From a virus, in IMG/VR virus record IMGVR_UViG_3300035565_000044, positions 36,523-100,522 of that record: 64,000 bases of DNA; one strand, written 5' to 3'. The notes beneath the pieces are model-generated. The model searched no databases and was not told where the DNA came from. It saw only the letters and a program-made list of their open reading frames with translations. A program made the translations under genes and the position numbers. Positions 2,507 to 55,054 of this stretch are shown here, piece after piece (the stretch's first letter is position 1; the number at the start of each line of letters is the position of its first letter).

Positions 2507-2578
2507 TGGCGCTCCTACACAGGATCGAACTGTGATTTTCAGGATTGAAAGCCTTATCCCTCACCAGAGGATAGGAGC
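2507..2578 (-). tRNA. tRNA-Glu(UUC), atypical (short D arm, weak anticodon stem)
   Basis: GCTCCTA/TAGGAGC acceptor, CTTTCAA loop, TTCGATC T-loop, CCA. Confidence 0.7.
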
Positions 2579-11573: not shown

Positions 11574-11935
11574 CGGTTCTTGTTCCTATTATATATGGTT
11601 TCTAGCGCAGTTATAGATTCGCTAGATAAGGCTTCTTTGAAAATCTCAATAAGCTTTTCATTGTTAGGAGTTTCCTTTTCGGTAGGGGCTGAGTCCCTGA
11701 GCGACACAGCCACCTTTGCCACCACGCCCCCAGCATAGTAGCACAGAGCGCAAATAACTTCGTTGTAGTCGCTCCCCCTTCTCTCCTCAGAATCAAGCCA
11801 CCTAAGGGCAGACTCTAGCATGTGTTTACGGGCGCGTCCTACGAGCGCGACCTGTTCGCTATCGCTGAGGCTATCTTGGTGGGCTGACTCCACCGCCGCA
11901 ACGATCATTTCATCAAGCTGCTTTTCAATGTCCAT
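11570..11935 (-). CDS. Hypothetical protein (start MDIEKQ)
   Basis: GAGGAG RBS; promoter TTGCAA-17-TACAAG at 11982-11954. Confidence 0.55.
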   Translation of the reverse strand: MDIEKQLDEMIVAAVESAHQDSLSDSEQVALVGRARKHMLESALRWLDSEERRGSDYNEVICALCYYAGGVVAKVAVSLRDSAPTEKETPNNEKLIEIFKEALSSESITALETIYNRNKNR

Positions 11936-11990
11936 ATTTTTCTCCTCTAACCCCTTGTATCCGTTACGGACGTTCGTTGCAAATGAGAAA

Positions 11991-12006
11991 AGTTTCACGT
12001 GGAGCA
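11991..12006. promoter_or_regulatory. parS-like site
   Basis: AGTTTCACGTGGAGCA, between divergent promoters. Confidence 0.55.
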
Positions 12007-12015
12007 TTTTCCTCG

Positions 12016-12044
12016 TTGACATGGGGTTAATTAGGGCTTAATTA
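12016..12044 (+). promoter_or_regulatory. Promoter for the Y RNA cluster
   Basis: TTGACA with AT-rich -10 (GCTTAATTA) about 17 nt downstream. Confidence 0.6.
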
Positions 12045-12054
12045 TCTCTTCACA

Positions 12055-12120
12055 GCCGGTGGCTAGGAAGTCGATTACAACGTCTTGTGAACGCTAACAT
12101 CGCCTCCGCTTTCCCCCGGC
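12055..12120 (+). ncRNA. Y RNA-like 1 (minimal)
   Basis: Closing stem GCCGG/CCGGC; scaffold TGGCTAG..CGATTACA...ATCG..GCTTTCC shared with RNAs 2 and 3; upstream of Ro60 gene. Confidence 0.7.
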
Positions 12121-12130
12121 GTCTGAATTT

Positions 12131-12268
12131 TTGTGTCGTGGCTAGGGATACGATTACATCTTCTATAGACAAGAAGACTTGCTTGGTTCGATTCCGAGCT
12201 CCCCCACCATCTACGGGGGAGTGTCCAGGGTGGACAGTCGTTATCGTCCCCGCTTTTTCCCGACGCAA
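12131..12268 (+). ncRNA. YrlA-like Y RNA 2 with circularly permuted tRNA module
   Basis: Stem TTGTGTCG/CGACGCAA; T arm CTTGG-TTCGATT-CCGAG; closed acceptor CTCCCCC-ACCATCTAC-GGGGGAG; then D-like hairpin. Confidence 0.85.
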
Positions 12269-12275
12269 CTTAATT

Positions 12276-12415
12276 CAGTGGAGTGGCTAGATTTCCGATT
12301 ACAACGATAGCTCAGTTGGTAGAGCAACAGACTTCATATCTGTAAGTCGTAGGTTCAAACCCTACTCGTTATCCCGTAAGGGGTAATCCATCGTAAATCG
12401 TTTTTCCCTCCACTG
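12276..12415 (+). ncRNA. Y RNA-like 3 carrying a non-permuted tRNA cloverleaf (UCA at the anticodon position)
   Basis: Stem CAGTGGAG/CTCCACTG; D arm GCTC-AGTTGGTA-GAGC; ACAGA-CTTCATA-TCTGT; T arm GTAGG-TTCAAAC-CCTAC; no CCA end. Confidence 0.8.
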
Positions 12416-12425
12416 CTTTAAACAG

Positions 12426-12462
12426 GCGCCGGTTCCTTCGCAAGAGGGGATCGGCGTTTTTT
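12426..12462 (+). terminator. Intrinsic terminator after the Y RNAs
   Basis: CGCCGGTTCCTT/AGGGGATCGGCG stem followed by T6. Confidence 0.8.
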
Positions 12463-12481
12463 GTTTGTAATGCGTAATTTA

Positions 12482-12536
12482 CGTCTCGCTTCATAGCGTG
12501 TCGTGACGTGCCGCAACTCACCGTAACGTAACGTCT
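12482..12536 (+). repeat. Pentamer array E (11 units), candidate guide RNA, in the Ro60 leader
   Basis: CGTCT CGCTT CATAG CGTGT CGTGA CGTGC CGCAA CTCAC CGTAA CGTAA CGTCT. Confidence 0.85.
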
Positions 12537-12553
12537 TGTAGAAAGGAAAGAAA

Positions 12554-13960
12554 ATGGCTCGTACTAATACTAGGACCAGAGCGCCACGCCCTCTGACGCA
12601 TGAAGGCGCTCCAGCCGATAGGATCACAAAAGAGCAAGAGTTGCGCCGCTCTGTGTCTTGCTGCCTGCTTTGGGAGAATGAATTCTATGAAAGCGGTGAA
12701 GACATTGCTAGCCGCATCAGGCGTCTCGCGCTGGAATGTTCTCCTCAATTTGTGTCTAATCTTGCTATTGATGTTCGCAATCGTCTTCACCTTCGTCACG
12801 TTCCTCTTTGGCTGCTTTGCGCTTTGGCTAAAACTGGAACTGGAATTCCGGGGCTTGTGGGGAATACTGTAGCACAAACCATCCAACGCCCAGACGAAAT
12901 TCCTGAGCTTTTGGCGCAGTATTACAAGGCCAATGGCGTTGCTATTAAGGATAAGGGCGGAAAGATCAACAAGATCAAGATGCCTAAGCAATTCAAGAAT
13001 GGTATCGCGCGAGCCTTCACTAAGTTCAACGAGTACTCGCTGGATAAGTGGAACAAAGACGGCGATATCTCCTTGAAATACGCCATGCGCGGCGTCCATC
13101 CAAAGCCAAAGGATGAGGCTCAGGCTCAGTTGTGGGCTAAGCTTTTGGGTAAGGAAGATAAGGAAACTGGCAAGTCTCAGAAGCTTAAGACGGCAGATAC
13201 AGTCATGTCCGCCTTGAGCGCTGGAAAAGAAAAGAAAACAGCAGAAGATAAGAAAACTGTTTTCGAGCGCCAGTTGCGTGAAGGAAAGATTGGATATTTC
13301 GCGTTATTGAAGAACTTGCGCGGGATGGTTGATGCTGGCGTTGACAGGCAGCTCGTTATTGACGCATTGCGCGCTAGGAAGGGAGACAAGGGAATTTTGC
13401 CGTTTCGCTATGTTTCCGCTGCGCGGGCGGCGCCAACGTATGAACCATATGTTGATGAAGCTCTTCAGCACGCGATTAAGAGCAGCAGGGAACTTCCAGG
13501 GCATACTTGGGTGCTTGTTGACGTTAGCGGCTCCATGGACGCCAGTATCTCTGCAAAGAGTGATCTTAGCCGGATAGACGCCGCTGCGGCTCTGGCGTCT
13601 CTGATTCACGGAGACAGAACAGTTATTACGTTCAGCAATGAAATAAAAGTTGTTCCAAGTCGCCACGGTATGGCTGGAATTGAGGCTATTCTCAAGAGCC
13701 AGATTCATAGCGGTACTGAGATGGGAAGGGCCATAAAGTATGTGAATGATCGCGCCAAGCCCCAAGATCGGCTTATCGTGATCACTGACGAACAGAGCGG
13801 GGATGTCGTCCCTGATCCAGTTTGCCAGAACGCATACGTCATAAATGTTGCGTCCTACCGCAATGGCGTCAGTTACGGCCATGGATGGAACCATATTGAC
13901 GGTTGGAGCGAAGCCGTGATAGATTACATTCATGAGCATGAGGCTACGCTTAAATTGTAG
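12554..13960 (+). CDS. rsr: Ro60/Rsr-like TROVE-domain RNA-binding protein with C-terminal VWA
   Basis: THEGAPA, LLWENEFYESG, VHPKP, ALLKNLR, LPFRY, VDVSGSM and VITDEQS motifs; adjacent Y RNAs. Confidence 0.95.
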   Translation: MARTNTRTRAPRPLTHEGAPADRITKEQELRRSVSCCLLWENEFYESGEDIASRIRRLALECSPQFVSNLAIDVRNRLHLRHVPLWLLCALAKTGTGIPGLVGNTVAQTIQRPDEIPELLAQYYKANGVAIKDKGGKINKIKMPKQFKNGIARAFTKFNEYSLDKWNKDGDISLKYAMRGVHPKPKDEAQAQLWAKLLGKEDKETGKSQKLKTADTVMSALSAGKEKKTAEDKKTVFERQLREGKIGYFALLKNLRGMVDAGVDRQLVIDALRARKGDKGILPFRYVSAARAAPTYEPYVDEALQHAIKSSRELPGHTWVLVDVSGSMDASISAKSDLSRIDAAAALASLIHGDRTVITFSNEIKVVPSRHGMAGIEAILKSQIHSGTEMGRAIKYVNDRAKPQDRLIVITDEQSGDVVPDPVCQNAYVINVASYRNGVSYGHGWNHIDGWSEAVIDYIHEHEATLKL

Positions 13961-52957: not shown

Positions 52958-53593
52958 ATGAGCGAAATCGACAAGGTCGCAGATCGCAGCGTTGGTGAAC
53001 GGATAGCTAAAGAATTAGAAGGCATAGATCGTAAGCTATATAGGGGAGATGACCTGTACTGTCAGGAGATGATGGACAAGGTTTGCGAGCTTATATCAGT
53101 TGGTTATAGCATGAATGAGATAGCTAATATCACTGGAATAGCTACGAATACGATCTATAGATGGTGTTGGAAGAACAAAGCGTTCTCAGACTCCATGATT
53201 CTAGCTAGACGTAACCAAGCTCATGTACTTATGGACAGGGCGCATCAGGCGGCTGCGGATGGCGTTATCCACGAGAGAGAGAAAGACGCTAACTTCACCG
53301 TCAACGCCTATATTAAAATAGCTGAGAAGTTAAATCCTAGAAAATATGGTGTTAAGCTTGTCGAGTATAGTGGCGAGCAAGATATAAGGATAACCGATGA
53401 GCAAAGAACCCTCAGGATTCTTGAACTCCTCGCAAAGAACAATCCAGCCCTCATCGAACAAGCAGTCGAAGTTGACGCCCTCCCAGATTACTCAGATGTT
53501 GAAGAGTATGAGTCCGGAGAAGAGGAAGGCGCTCCTGACGAAGATTACTCCTACAGTAGACGATATTCGGGGCCTGGAGAAGACGGACGCTGA
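52958..53593 (+). CDS. terS: Terminase small subunit
   Basis: HTH (GYSMNEIA...TIYRW) and KLNPRKYG motif; upstream of TerL. Confidence 0.8.
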   Translation: MSEIDKVADRSVGERIAKELEGIDRKLYRGDDLYCQEMMDKVCELISVGYSMNEIANITGIATNTIYRWCWKNKAFSDSMILARRNQAHVLMDRAHQAAADGVIHEREKDANFTVNAYIKIAEKLNPRKYGVKLVEYSGEQDIRITDEQRTLRILELLAKNNPALIEQAVEVDALPDYSDVEEYESGEEEGAPDEDYSYSRRYSGPGEDGR

Positions 53594-54296
53594 AGAGTTA
53601 TATCAGCAGGCCGAGGCGCAAGCCAATTTTTCTAAGCATAATAAGCTTCTTACCCTTTACCCAGAATATGGGCCGCTTAGGAGGGGATTGTATAAGAAGC
53701 ATATGCAGTTCTTCCGTGCAGGTAAAGAGTATAATGAAAGAGCAGTTATTGCCGCTAACCGTTCTGGTAAATCATTTGGTATAGGCGGATACGAGACTAC
53801 GCTCCATCTAACTGGATTATATCCTGAATGGTGGGAAGGGCGCCGCTTCCATGGGCCAACAGAAGCATGGGCGGCAGGCGACACCAGCGAAACGACACGC
53901 GATATTATTCAGCATATTATGTTAGGAAATCCAGGGGAATTTGGAACTGGATTAATACCAAAAGATTGTATTCTAGGAAATCCTACGCATAGAGCTGGCG
54001 TTGCGGCTGCGGTAGACACAGTAAGAGTTCGCCATACATCAGGTGGAACTAGCTGGCTTGGTTTTAAATCATATGACCAGGGCCGAGCAAAGTTTCAAGG
54101 TACTGCGAAAGACATAGTATGGCTTGATGAAGAGCCGCCATTAGATGTGTATACTGAGTGTTTAACGCGTTTGATGACAAGAAACGGTATAATACTTTGT
54201 ACATTTACGCCACTAAGCGGATTGTCTGACGTGGTGCTGATGTATATGCCAAGCATGGCTCCAGAGCCGGATACAATTGAGATGGAGGCGTTTTGA
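53397..54296 (+). CDS. terL: Terminase large subunit, N-terminal ATPase part (P22-like)
   Basis: AANRSGKS Walker A, WLDEEPP Walker B, TFTP motif. Confidence 0.92.
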   Translation: MSKEPSGFLNSSQRTIQPSSNKQSKLTPSQITQMLKSMSPEKRKALLTKITPTVDDIRGLEKTDAEELYQQAEAQANFSKHNKLLTLYPEYGPLRRGLYKKHMQFFRAGKEYNERAVIAANRSGKSFGIGGYETTLHLTGLYPEWWEGRRFHGPTEAWAAGDTSETTRDIIQHIMLGNPGEFGTGLIPKDCILGNPTHRAGVAAAVDTVRVRHTSGGTSWLGFKSYDQGRAKFQGTAKDIVWLDEEPPLDVYTECLTRLMTRNGIILCTFTPLSGLSDVVLMYMPSMAPEPDTIEMEAF

Positions 54297-55054
54297 CAAG
54301 CGGGCGCTTCACACTTCAAATTGGTTGGGCTGACTGTCCGCATTTATCCAAGGCGGATTGTGAGCGCATGCTCAGAGCGTTCCCCGTCCACGAAAGGGAC
54401 GCGCGCTCTCTTGGTGTTCCGATGCTTGGCGCCGGAAAGGTATACCCAGTGAGTGAAGACGAATTCGTTATTGATCCATTTAAAATGCCAACATATTGGC
54501 CCCGTGCTTATGCTCTTGACGTTGGTTGGAAACGTACAGCGGCGGTATGGGGAGCAATAGACAGAGATGATGATATTCTGTATATATACAGCGAATATTA
54601 TCAGGGACATCAACCTCCCGCTGTCCATGCTTATGCTATCAAGGCGCGTGGTGAAAACCTAATTGGTTGCGTAGACCCTGCGGCGGCTGGCGTCAGTCAG
54701 GTTGATGGTAAATCTCTTATTAACGAGTACCGCAAAGCTGGATTGAGACTGTTTCCTGCTAATAATAAGGTTACAGGTCAAGAGGGCGGAATACATAATA
54801 TTTTTACGAGATTAACTGAAGGTAGATTGAAAATCTTCAGAACGTGTGTTAATCTTATTAAAGAAATGCGCATATATCGACGTAATGACCGTGGCGCAAT
54901 CGTAAAAGAGAACGACCATTTGTGCGACGCGCTTAGATATTTGTCGATGAGTAACATGGTTCATGCCCAGAAGCTTCGTGGAGACGAAGATGAAGAGGAT
55001 GACGCCGACAATGTCATTTCAATGGCTGGTAGAAGCAAAATAACTGGATACTGA
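54293..55054 (+). CDS. terL: Terminase large subunit, C-terminal nuclease part
   Basis: W..CPHL, GVPMLGAG, ALDVGW and DHLCDALRY motifs; GGAGG before TTG. Confidence 0.9.
   Translation: MTSGRFTLQIGWADCPHLSKADCERMLRAFPVHERDARSLGVPMLGAGKVYPVSEDEFVIDPFKMPTYWPRAYALDVGWKRTAAVWGAIDRDDDILYIYSEYYQGHQPPAVHAYAIKARGENLIGCVDPAAAGVSQVDGKSLINEYRKAGLRLFPANNKVTGQEGGIHNIFTRLTEGRLKIFRTCVNLIKEMRIYRRNDRGAIVKENDHLCDALRYLSMSNMVHAQKLRGDEDEEDDADNVISMAGRSKITGY

What the first reader, a model, noticed from the sequence alone, without database searches (positions are those of the whole stretch)
12303..12370. Non-permuted tRNA with UCA at the anticodon position embedded inside Y RNA 3
Near-perfect D, anticodon and T arms with a 5-bp acceptor (AACGA/TCGTT), no CCA, and loop CTTCATA (UCA at 34-36, pyrimidine at 37). 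Canonical YrlA replaces the anticodon arm with the Ro stem; this RNA instead attaches through the acceptor end and displays an opal-complementary loop. It could be bait for an anticodon nuclease, an unchargeable UGA-site mimic, or a releasable suppressor precursor.
Basis: partly seen in the sequence, partly recalled or inferred. Interest (0 to 1): 0.7.

Follow-up and report, generated by a model that had tools for sequence, protein, structure and literature searches.

The report
Whole tRNA mimic inside phage Y RNA
A 100-kb phage encodes, just upstream of its Ro60 (Rsr) gene, a small Y RNA whose cargo is a complete tRNA cloverleaf in normal order. It is most likely a tethered tRNA look-alike and not a working stop-codon-reading tRNA, a layout the Y RNA papers I could read do not describe.

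Summary
Observation confirmed. Window 12301-12373 (+) is a full class-I tRNA cloverleaf (Rfam tRNA 61.9 bits, as good as the phage's real tRNAs) with loop CUUCAUA (UCA at 34-36, U37). It has no encoded CCA and a weak A/U acceptor stem with a C.A mismatch.

It lies inside the third of three tandem Y RNAs (promoter, Y1, Y2, Y3, terminator) directly upstream of rsr (TROVE+vWA) in a complete 100.5-kb phage. Y2 is a canonical permuted YrlA. Y3 carries the same Ro-type handle but holds a non-permuted tRNA joined through its acceptor end.

Two relatives (Rsr 96% and 86% identical) keep the design. The tRNA is the best-conserved part of the locus apart from the terminator (94.5% against 80% for rsr and 57% for the spacer), and it shows a compensatory 31:39 swap.

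UCA is unchanged, but divergence is too small to prove selection on it. Position 37 flips U/G, the phage uses standard TGA stops, and the equivalent loops of about 85 other YrlAs carry almost any triplet.

Best reading: a tethered whole-tRNA mimic of the Rsr particle. A suppressor or a nuclease bait is less likely.

It is a new variant of a known kind. Earlier unchecked notes of this scan report similar nested cloverleaves on other DNA.

The parts
12016..12045 (+). sigma-70-like promoter of the Y RNA cluster (TTGACA, 18-nt spacer, AATTAT)
   Evidence: 10 of 12 consensus matches. It is the only promoter-like site in 11900-12600.
12055..12120 (+). Y RNA 1: Ro-type handle with a small hairpin as cargo (YrlB-like)
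   Evidence: shared motif at 12060; closing stem GCCGG/CCGGC read; conserved in L023 and L026
12131..12268 (+). Y RNA 2: canonical circularly permuted YrlA-type module. Order: hairpin, T arm, closed acceptor stem-loop, D arm.
   Evidence: the weak tmRNA_permuted hit on the T arm and acceptor reflects the permuted order
12276..12415 (+). Y RNA 3, whole unit: 8-bp closing stem, GG/CC pairs, CUA/GUUUUU internal loop, helix 2 (12290-12294 with 12395-12399), CGAU/AUCG helix (12296-12299 with 12390-12393), tRNA cargo, small hairpin
   Evidence: In the proposed structure 96% of cells are paired, against 35-50% in slid controls. Three double compensatory changes fall in helix 2.
12301..12373 (+). non-permuted tRNA cloverleaf. 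Acceptor 12301-12307 with 12366-12372, D arm 12310-12325, anticodon arm 12327-12343, variable loop 12344-12348, T arm 12349-12365.
   Evidence: Rfam tRNA 61.9 bits
12332..12338 (+). 7-nt anticodon-like loop CUUCAUA (UCA at 12334-12336; U at position 37 = 12337)
   Evidence: The loop is CUUCAUA in L023 and CUUCAGA in L026.
12373..12382 (+). CCC-GUAA-GGG tetraloop hairpin directly after the acceptor 3' strand, occupying the place of a CCA end
   Evidence: invariant in the three relatives
12424..12467 (+). intrinsic terminator that closes the Y RNA cluster
   Evidence: 98-100% identical in L023 and L026
12554..13960 (+). rsr, the phage Ro60 orthologue (468 aa, TROVE + vWA)
   Evidence: PF05731, PF13519, PF25045; thousands of Ro60 homologues

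Best explanation
Y RNA 3 is a partner RNA of the phage Rsr (Ro60) protein, and its effector module is a complete tRNA look-alike in normal order.

The three Y RNAs are probably made as one transcript, from the promoter at 12016 to the terminator at 12424-12467, and cut apart at the A/U-rich spacers (inferred).

In Y3 the paired 5' and 3' ends form the same Ro-type handle as in Y1 and Y2 (shown by sequence and covariation). Rsr probably binds that handle (inferred from the family). The tRNA body folds into an L shape that projects from the particle (inferred from a full set of tertiary-contact nucleotides).

Because the acceptor end is tied into a three-way junction, has no CCA and is followed by a tetraloop hairpin, the module exposes its elbow and anticodon arm and hides the aminoacyl end. 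In that respect it complements Y2, which exposes the elbow and a closed acceptor stem.

I therefore read it as a tethered, non-decoding tRNA mimic. It would recruit a tRNA-binding host or phage factor to Rsr, or gate or stabilise the particle, in the way YrlA and Yrn1 tether PNPase. The UCA triplet is most likely incidental, not an opal-decoding device.
For: - **Handle shared with Y1 and Y2.** The motif occurs 3 times against 0 expected.
- **Structure.** 43 proposed pairs are 96% paired, with 4 double compensatory changes. Slid controls give 35-50%.
- **Operon.** Promoter and terminator bracket the three units, and rsr lies directly downstream.
- **Selection on the tRNA.** Against L026 the tRNA is 94.5% identical. 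rsr DNA is 80%, Y1 78%, the spacer 57% and the upstream gene 68%. Changes fall at loop positions, position 26 and one compensatory 31:39 pair.
- **Against decoding.**
  - U37 in two of three relatives, whereas all six other phage tRNAs have a purine there.
  - No CCA, whereas 5 of 6 phage tRNAs and the five tRNA genes read in candidate host-lineage genomes encode it.
  - An A/U acceptor stem with a conserved C.A mismatch.
  - TGA ends 29% of ORFs, and neither recoding nor TGA-specific read-through is seen.
- **Family context.**
  - In about 185 rsr loci, Y units carrying tRNA arms are the rule.
  - Their anticodon-like loops keep C32, U33 and a purine at 37 but carry almost any triplet.
  - Phage Ro60 with Y-like RNAs binds host PNPase (PMC12135203).
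  - Yrn1 already has the D, anticodon-like, T order (PMC4201824).
Against: - No RNA or protein-binding data exist for this phage, and no RNA run was listed.
- The thermodynamic MFE fold of Y3 is about 5 kcal/mol better than the cloverleaf-containing fold. That is common for real tRNAs, but it leaves the fold unproven.
- Covariation rests on three sequences from one small clade.
- The acceptor stem has 7 positions (6 pairs) with U at -1. Chen et al. name a 7-bp acceptor stem as the feature that makes M. smegmatis YrlA an RNase P substrate (PMC4201824), so cleavage or release is not excluded.
- UCA is invariant while its neighbours (31, 37, 39) changed. This is compatible with selection on the triplet.
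- The partner of the tRNA module is unknown.
Confidence: 0.6

Rival explanations
1. Y3 is a tRNA precursor. RNase P cuts before A12301 and a 3' nuclease cuts after position 73. The host CCA-adding enzyme completes the tRNA, which is charged and reads UGA, making it a phage opal suppressor. The handle may regulate its release.
For: - The tRNA body is canonical (61.9 bits).
- The acceptor has 7 positions with U at -1 and C74-C75 encoded.
- M. smegmatis YrlA is cut by RNase P and receives CCA in vivo (PMC4201824).
- L026 has G37, and UCA is unchanged in the relatives.
- Other rsr phages carry bona fide CUA suppressor tRNAs with CCA near rsr: L008/L053 and L009.
Against: - U37 in the window and in L023.
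- A conserved C.A mismatch at 2:71 and an A/U-rich acceptor stem.
- No CCA, although 5 of 6 phage tRNAs and the five tRNA genes read in candidate host-lineage genomes encode it.
- The leader and trailer are paired right next to the acceptor stem.
- The genome uses the standard code. TGA ends 49 of 168 ORFs. Coding density is 0.879 and rises only to 0.884 if TGA is read as sense. ORFs ending in TGA are followed by no more open frame than those ending in TAA or TAG.
- I saw no synthetase identity set. The discriminator is C73, and there is no G3:U70.
Confidence: 0.12
2. Y3 is a tethered bait. The displayed anticodon arm captures a host enzyme that binds anticodon loops, such as an anticodon nuclease of a defence system or a loop-modifying enzyme. 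It holds that enzyme on the Rsr (and PNPase) particle, protecting the phage's or the host's tRNAs.
For: - Unlike Y2, Y3 exposes a complete 5-bp/7-nt anticodon arm while burying the acceptor end.
- The closest tRNAs found in five candidate host-lineage genomes are tRNA-Lys, at 80-81%. From general knowledge, tRNA-Lys is a frequent target of anticodon nucleases.
- The phage carries its own tRNA set.
- A phage Ro60/Y RNA complex recruits host PNPase (PMC12135203).
Against: - The loop matches no sense tRNA of phage or host, so it is a poor decoy for an anticodon-specific nuclease.
- Loop position 37 is not conserved.
- I identified no defence or repair genes (RtcB, Pnkp and the like) among the neighbours that were scanned.
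- Similarity to tRNA-Lys is barely above that to tRNA-Phe.
Confidence: 0.15
3. It is an ordinary, possibly decaying, phage tRNA gene that merely lies between Y2 and rsr. The flanking complementarity is accidental.
For: - ARAGORN and Rfam call it a tRNA.
- Real tRNA genes often sit beside rsr and Y RNAs, for example in L067, L072 and L203.
- In D. radiodurans, Yrn2, tRNA-Asp and Yrn1 are co-transcribed (PMC4201824).
Against: - The flanks carry the exact handle motif of Y1 and Y2 (0 expected by chance).
- There is an 8-bp closing stem, and helix 2 was replaced by a different but still complementary pair of strands in L023 and L026.
- A decaying gene would not be the best-conserved element of the locus apart from the terminator.
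Confidence: 0.03

Closest known systems
YrlA (Rfam RF02553), the tRNA-like Y RNA of Salmonella, Mycobacterium, many bacteria and some phages (Chen et al. 2014, PMC4201824; Wang et al. 2018, 10.1101/312249)
   Same: It is encoded next to rsr. Its 5' and 3' ends pair into a Ro-type handle whose 5'-strand motif (UGGCUAG here, UGGCGUAG in relatives) is conserved. The effector module has tRNA D and T arms with all the elbow contacts. Several Y RNAs sit at one locus.
   Different: YrlA is circularly permuted (T arm before D arm), has a closed acceptor stem-loop, and joins the handle through the anticodon-stem position. Y3 is in tRNA order, keeps a full anticodon arm, and joins the handle through its acceptor end. 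RF02553 gives no hit in window 11900-12600 even at E<=10. It does hit the permuted units of cultured rsr phages at 30-52 bits.
Deinococcus radiodurans Yrn1 (Chen et al. 2014, PMC4201824)
   Same: It has the same orientation: D-like element, then an anticodon-like arm, then the T arm, with the RNA ends in the Ro-binding stem. It tethers Rsr to PNPase.
   Different: Yrn1 is only a rough mimic, with no full D arm, a 6-nt 'anticodon' loop and no dihydrouridine detected. Y3 is a complete cloverleaf that scores like a real tRNA. Sequence homology to Yrn1 was not tested because no reference sequence was at hand.
M. smegmatis YrlA processing (RNase P cut, CCA addition; PMC4201824)
   Same: Y3 also has an acceptor stem of 7 positions. 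[quoted passage not shown]
   Different: In M. smegmatis the cut opens a closed acceptor loop. In Y3 it would separate the 5' handle strand from the tRNA. This was not tested here.
Opal suppressor tRNAs and tRNA-Sec
   Same: They share the UCA triplet at positions 34-36. ARAGORN therefore labels Y3 'tRNA-SeC'.
   Different: Y3 has none of the tRNA-Sec architecture: a normal 7/5 acceptor/T helix, a 4-bp D stem and a 5-nt variable loop. It also has U37, no CCA and paired flanks, and the genome has no need for UGA decoding.

Membership tests
Bacterial/phage Y RNA (Ro60/Rsr partner RNA) | Encoded next to an rsr (TROVE) gene | tested here: met
   Y3 ends 139 nt upstream of rsr (12554-13960), which matches TROVE + vWA.
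Bacterial/phage Y RNA (Ro60/Rsr partner RNA) | 5' and 3' ends pair into a long stem that carries the conserved Ro-binding 5'-strand motif | tested here: met
   8-bp closing stem, GG/CC pairs and an internal loop. The motif is shared with Y1 and Y2 and resembles the handles of YrlAs in about 185 rsr loci. Compensatory changes occur in helix 2.
Bacterial/phage Y RNA (Ro60/Rsr partner RNA) | Physically bound and stabilised by Rsr | not testable with these tools
   Needs Rsr immunoprecipitation or an EMSA.
YrlA subfamily (RF02553) | Circularly permuted tRNA-like domain: T arm 5' of D arm, closed acceptor stem-loop | tested here: not met
   In Y3 the D arm (12310-12325) precedes the T arm (12349-12365), and the acceptor stem is open towards the handle. 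Y2 does meet this feature.
YrlA subfamily (RF02553) | Match to the Rfam covariance model | tested here: not met
   No RF02553 match in 11900-12600 at E<=10.
tRNA (RF00005) | Cloverleaf with the conserved tertiary-contact nucleotides | tested here: met
   61.9 bits against a gathering score of 29. U8, A14, G15:C48, G18G19, G46, U54-U55-C56 and A58 are present.
tRNA (RF00005) | Purine at position 37 (near-universal in decoding tRNAs; established knowledge) | tested here: not met
   U37 in the window and L023, G37 in L026. All six other phage tRNAs have A or G.
tRNA (RF00005) | Free 7-bp acceptor end with CCA, either encoded or added, and aminoacylation | tested here: inconclusive
   6 of 7 pairs form. 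CCCG stands in place of NCCA, and both ends continue into the paired handle. CCA addition and charging cannot be tested here.
tRNA-Sec | Extended acceptor stem (8 or 9 bp), long D stem, long variable arm | tested here: not met
   Standard class-I geometry. The label comes from the anticodon alone.
Suppressor tRNA of a recoded phage | The genome reads the matching stop codon as sense, or shows read-through genes | tested here: not met
   Coding density is 0.879 under the standard code and 0.884 with TGA as sense. TGA ends 49 of 168 ORFs. There is no excess of open frame after TGA.
Yrn1-type orientation | D-like element, anticodon-like arm and T arm in tRNA order, with the RNA ends in the Ro stem | tested here: met
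   The topology of Y3 matches the description in PMC4201824. Homology by sequence was not tested.

The most novel reading that the evidence does not exclude
Y3 is a conditional pre-tRNA. While Rsr holds the handle, the tRNA is locked. When the handle is freed or nicked by RNase P and a 3' nuclease, a CCA-completed tRNA with anticodon UCA is released. It gives a timed burst of UGA read-through, or blocks release-factor action, during infection.
Probability: 0.05. Interest if true: 0.85.

Novelty: new variant of a known kind. Interest (0 to 1): 0.5.

Why it matters
Bacterial Y RNAs are known to mimic parts of tRNA, but the described ones (YrlA, Yrn1) are either permuted or imperfect, and the partner of the tRNA-like module is still unknown.

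Here one phage operon places a permuted YrlA beside a Y RNA that carries an entire tRNA in normal order, including a proper anticodon arm. Three consequences follow.

- It provides a natural pair of baits, Y2 and Y3, for finding what the tRNA module binds.
- It bears on the proposal that Y RNAs arose from tRNA transcripts.
- It warns annotators that 'tRNA-SeC', 'suppressor' and other tRNA calls next to rsr can be Y RNA cargo. GenBank records of CcrColossus and a Brevundimonas phage already label Y units as tRNA-Gln and tRNA-Ser.

Tried and rejected
- **Stop-codon recoding or TGA read-through.** Rejected.
- **tRNA-Sec.** Rejected on architecture.
- **Recent copy of a phage tRNA.** The best match, the phage tRNA-Thr, is only 63% identical overall and 41/58 in the body.
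- **Host ancestry.** tRNA-Lys is 80-81% identical and tRNA-Phe 75-82%, so ancestry is unresolved.
- **Pattern scans of viral contigs for handle-plus-D-arm.** They returned 14 loci. Apart from the known relative, all were ordinary tRNAs preceded by a chance GTGGCTA, with no rsr in the stretches fetched.
- **Exact-pattern scan for Y3.** It found only L023/L106.
- **Expression.** No RNA holder was listed.
- **Contigs of four aquatic or freshwater DNA runs.**
  - Three distinct contigs cover Y2-Y3 at about 90-94% identity: X1 record 3, X3 record 7 and X4 record 9. X5 repeats X4 exactly and may be the same data set.
  - They show the L023-type helix 2, and no change is listed in 12327-12343.
  - The difference table looked incomplete, so I use this only as weak support.
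- **Loop pairing.** I looked by eye for pairing between the loop and the Y1-Y2 spacer, or a shifted CAU reading. Neither is conserved in L026, so both were dropped.
- **MFE folding.** It does not return the cloverleaf.
- **Reviews not held.** PMC10870794 and PMC6047535.

Full report
**1. What is there**

The window is the right-hand 64 kb of a complete 100,522-bp virus record with direct terminal repeats. Around the finding, phage replication genes (DnaB-like helicase, initiator, primase) lie upstream. Portal and terminase genes lie further on.

- At 12554-13960 (+) is a 468-aa protein with TROVE and vWA domains, a Ro60/Rsr orthologue. It has thousands of homologues.
- Among the 80 genome-collection matches returned, its closest cellular relatives are Caulobacterales (above all Asticcacaulis), Hyphomicrobiaceae and Rhizobiaceae, at 50-53% identity.
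- Cultured Caulobacter, Brevundimonas, Xanthomonas and Rhizobium phages also carry the gene.

**2. The tRNA**

ARAGORN and the Rfam tRNA model (61.9 bits, E 5e-11) both find a 73-nt class-I cloverleaf at 12301-12373.

- All three arms are perfectly paired, and every nucleotide that builds the tRNA elbow is present.
- The loop is CUUCAUA: U33, UCA at 34-36 and, unusually, U at position 37.
- The acceptor stem is A/U-rich, with A1-U72 and a C2.A71 mismatch.
- CCCG follows, not NCCA.

**3. It sits inside a Y RNA**

A sigma-70-like promoter (12016-12045) and an intrinsic terminator (12424-12467) bracket three units. Each unit starts with TGGCTAK-N5-CGATTACA. That motif occurs 3 times against 0 expected. 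Each unit ends with a C/U-rich strand and is closed by its own terminal stem.

- Y1 (12055-12120) carries only a small hairpin.
- Y2 (12131-12268) is a canonical circularly permuted YrlA: hairpin, T arm, closed acceptor stem-loop, D arm.
- Y3 (12276-12415) carries the tRNA.

In Y3 the stems stack in this order:

- an 8-bp closing stem;
- GG/CC pairs;
- an internal loop;
- helix 2;
- a CGAU/AUCG helix, which Y2 and Y1 also have;
- a three-way junction made of the tRNA acceptor stem and a CCC-GUAA-GGG hairpin.

An alternative GAUUAC/GUAAUC register is possible, and the data cannot separate the two. The 156-nt region folds far better than shuffles (z = -5.3). The plain MFE fold is about 5 kcal/mol below the cloverleaf-containing fold, as often happens with true tRNAs.

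**4. Relatives**

Only a small clade has this layout.

- L023 is an IMG/VR fragment with Rsr 96% identical.
- L026 is a metagenome contig with Rsr 86% identical.
- The next Rsr is 55% identical.

Both relatives keep Y1, Y2, Y3 and the terminator. On the proposed Y3 structure, 96% of cells pair, against 35-50% when partners are slid. Four pairs change on both sides: three in helix 2 and the 31:39 pair of the anticodon stem.

Against L026, identity by region is as follows:

| Region | Identity to L026 |
|---|---|
| terminator | 98.2% |
| tRNA | 94.5% |
| Y3 (whole unit) | 88.1% |
| Y2 | 86% |
| rsr DNA (first 270 nt) | 80% |
| Y1 | 78% |
| upstream gene | 68% |
| spacer to rsr | 57% |

The tRNA is therefore under strong purifying selection.

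Within the tRNA, the changes are at D-loop position 17, position 26, the 31:39 pair, position 37 (U to G) and T-loop positions 59-60. UCA itself is unchanged. With so few substitutions that is not statistically informative.

Contigs from aquatic and freshwater metagenomes also hold Y2-Y3 at about 90-94% identity (three distinct contigs; a fourth run repeats one of them), with no listed change in the anticodon arm. That table seemed incomplete, so I give it little weight.

**5. Is it a working tRNA?**

- The phage's six other tRNAs all have a purine at 37. Five encode CCA and have G/C-rich acceptor stems.
- The five tRNA genes read in candidate host-lineage genomes all encode CCA.
- The genome uses the standard code.
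  - Coding density is 0.879, and only 0.884 if TGA is read as sense.
  - TGA ends 49 of 168 ORFs.
  - The open frame after TGA stops is no longer than after TAA or TAG.
- Nothing in the genome calls for an opal suppressor.
- Against this, the 7-position acceptor stem with U at -1 matches the feature that Chen et al. link to RNase P cleavage of M. smegmatis YrlA (PMC4201824). A cut, or even release, cannot be excluded.

**6. Wider survey**

I surveyed about 185 rsr loci from viral, metagenome, genome and GenBank phage collections. Some are redundant. Units carrying a Ro-type handle plus tRNA arms were classed as follows:

| Class | Units |
|---|---|
| permuted (T arm before D arm) | 85 |
| T arm only | 56 |
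| D arm only | 10 |
| flagged as D arm before T arm | 7 |

Of the seven flagged units:

- three are this clade;
- two (L079 and L082) are a different design, a tRNA with free acceptor ends whose anticodon region carries the Ro-type handle as a closed arm;
- two are false calls.

crAss001 has a 144-nt unit of the L079 kind downstream of its TROVE gene. Rhizobium phage RHph_TM30 has a handle-enclosed unit in D-to-T order, but with a degenerate middle arm (33.9 bits).

A complete cloverleaf nested through its acceptor end was found only in this clade.

In the permuted YrlAs, the hairpin 5' of the T arm is anticodon-arm-like. It has a 5-bp stem and a 7-nt loop, with C32 in 59%, U33 in 73% and a purine at 37 in 87%. 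Its triplet varies widely: CAU, GUU, UGU, GUC, GUG and others, including UCA twice and CUA and UUA once each. This argues that triplets shown by Y RNA cargo are not decoding devices.

**7. Mechanism**

- Shown: the operon layout, the shared handle, the cloverleaf, its conservation, and the absence of decoding hallmarks.
- Inferred from the family (PMC4201824, 10.1101/312249, PMC12135203): Rsr binds the handle, and the tRNA module acts as tether, gate or stabiliser.

My best reading (0.6) is a tethered whole-tRNA mimic that presents its elbow and anticodon arm while the aminoacyl end is buried. The rivals are a releasable suppressor precursor (0.12), a bait for an enzyme that binds anticodon loops (0.15) and an ordinary tRNA gene (0.03).

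**8. Novelty**

The papers I could read describe permuted YrlA and the imperfect Yrn1. None describes a Y RNA that encloses a complete tRNA in normal order. I therefore class it as a new variant of a known kind.

Earlier unchecked notes of this scan report nested or rearranged whole-tRNA cargo beside Ro60-like genes in other phages. I verified only the related L079/crAss001 and RHph_TM30 designs myself.

**9. Limits**

- There are three sequences from one clade and no RNA data.
- Two reviews were not held.

Noticed in passing
L133, L136, L192, L134, L137, L139, L007, L021 and others (hairpin just 5' of the T arm): In permuted YrlAs of this Rsr clade, the hairpin before the T arm looks like a true anticodon arm: 5-bp stem, 7-nt loop, C32/U33, purine at 37. 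Loops with U33-G34-U35 (Asn-, Asp-, Tyr- and His-like, the motif recognised by tRNA-guanine transglycosylase) seem over-represented. Congeneric Hoeflea loci differ only at position 36.
   Followed up: partly
L079:973-1107 and L082 (same design); L204:3124-3267 (crAss001): A tRNA-shaped RNA with free acceptor ends whose anticodon region carries the Ro-type handle as a closed arm. It is the reverse permutation of YrlA and lies beside rsr. ARAGORN reads it as a tRNA with a 44-nt intron.
   Followed up: partly
L200:618-1420 (CcrColossus), L201:560-1420 (Brevundimonas phage Gurke), L202:830-1410 (Xanthomonas phage MET23-P3): Cultured rsr phages carry arrays of five or more tandem Y RNAs with different tRNA-like cargo upstream of rsr. 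GenBank annotates single units as tRNA-Gln and tRNA-Ser.
   Followed up: partly
L203:886-1030 (Rhizobium phage RHph_TM30): A handle-enclosed unit with D arm before T arm (tRNA model positions 6-65, 33.9 bits) but a degenerate middle arm. This is a rougher, Yrn1-like non-permuted cargo.
   Followed up: partly
window 12207-12210 (Y2 acceptor loop): The ACCA in the closed acceptor loop of Y2 is not conserved. L023 has UCA and L026 has ACA at that place. This argues against a processed CCA end.
   Followed up: yes
window 53397-54296 and 54293-55054: The large terminase appears split. The N-terminal ATPase domain (Terminase_6N) ends at a TGA that overlaps a TTG start of the next ORF, which lies in another frame. 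This could be a frameshift, two subunits or an assembly error.
   Followed up: no
window 12027-12041 (Y RNA promoter spacer): A TTAA-N7-TTAA (CtrA-box-like) site lies inside the promoter. It has one mismatch in L023 and two in L026, so it is only weakly conserved.
   Followed up: partly
L008:1897-1972 (= L053:397-472) and L009:4325-4400: Other rsr phages carry well-formed CUA (amber-reading) tRNAs with encoded CCA near rsr. They look like genuine suppressor tRNAs and not Y cargo.
   Followed up: partly
window 2510-2578 (-): A weak extra tRNA-model hit (34.4 bits) lies beside tRNA-Met (2340-2412). ARAGORN does not call it. It may be a degenerate tRNA or a tRNA-like element.
   Followed up: no
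window 12468-12553: The leader between the terminator and rsr is rich in short ACGTRAC-like repeats. It is poorly conserved in L026 (57% identity), where it is longer but similarly repetitive.
   Followed up: no
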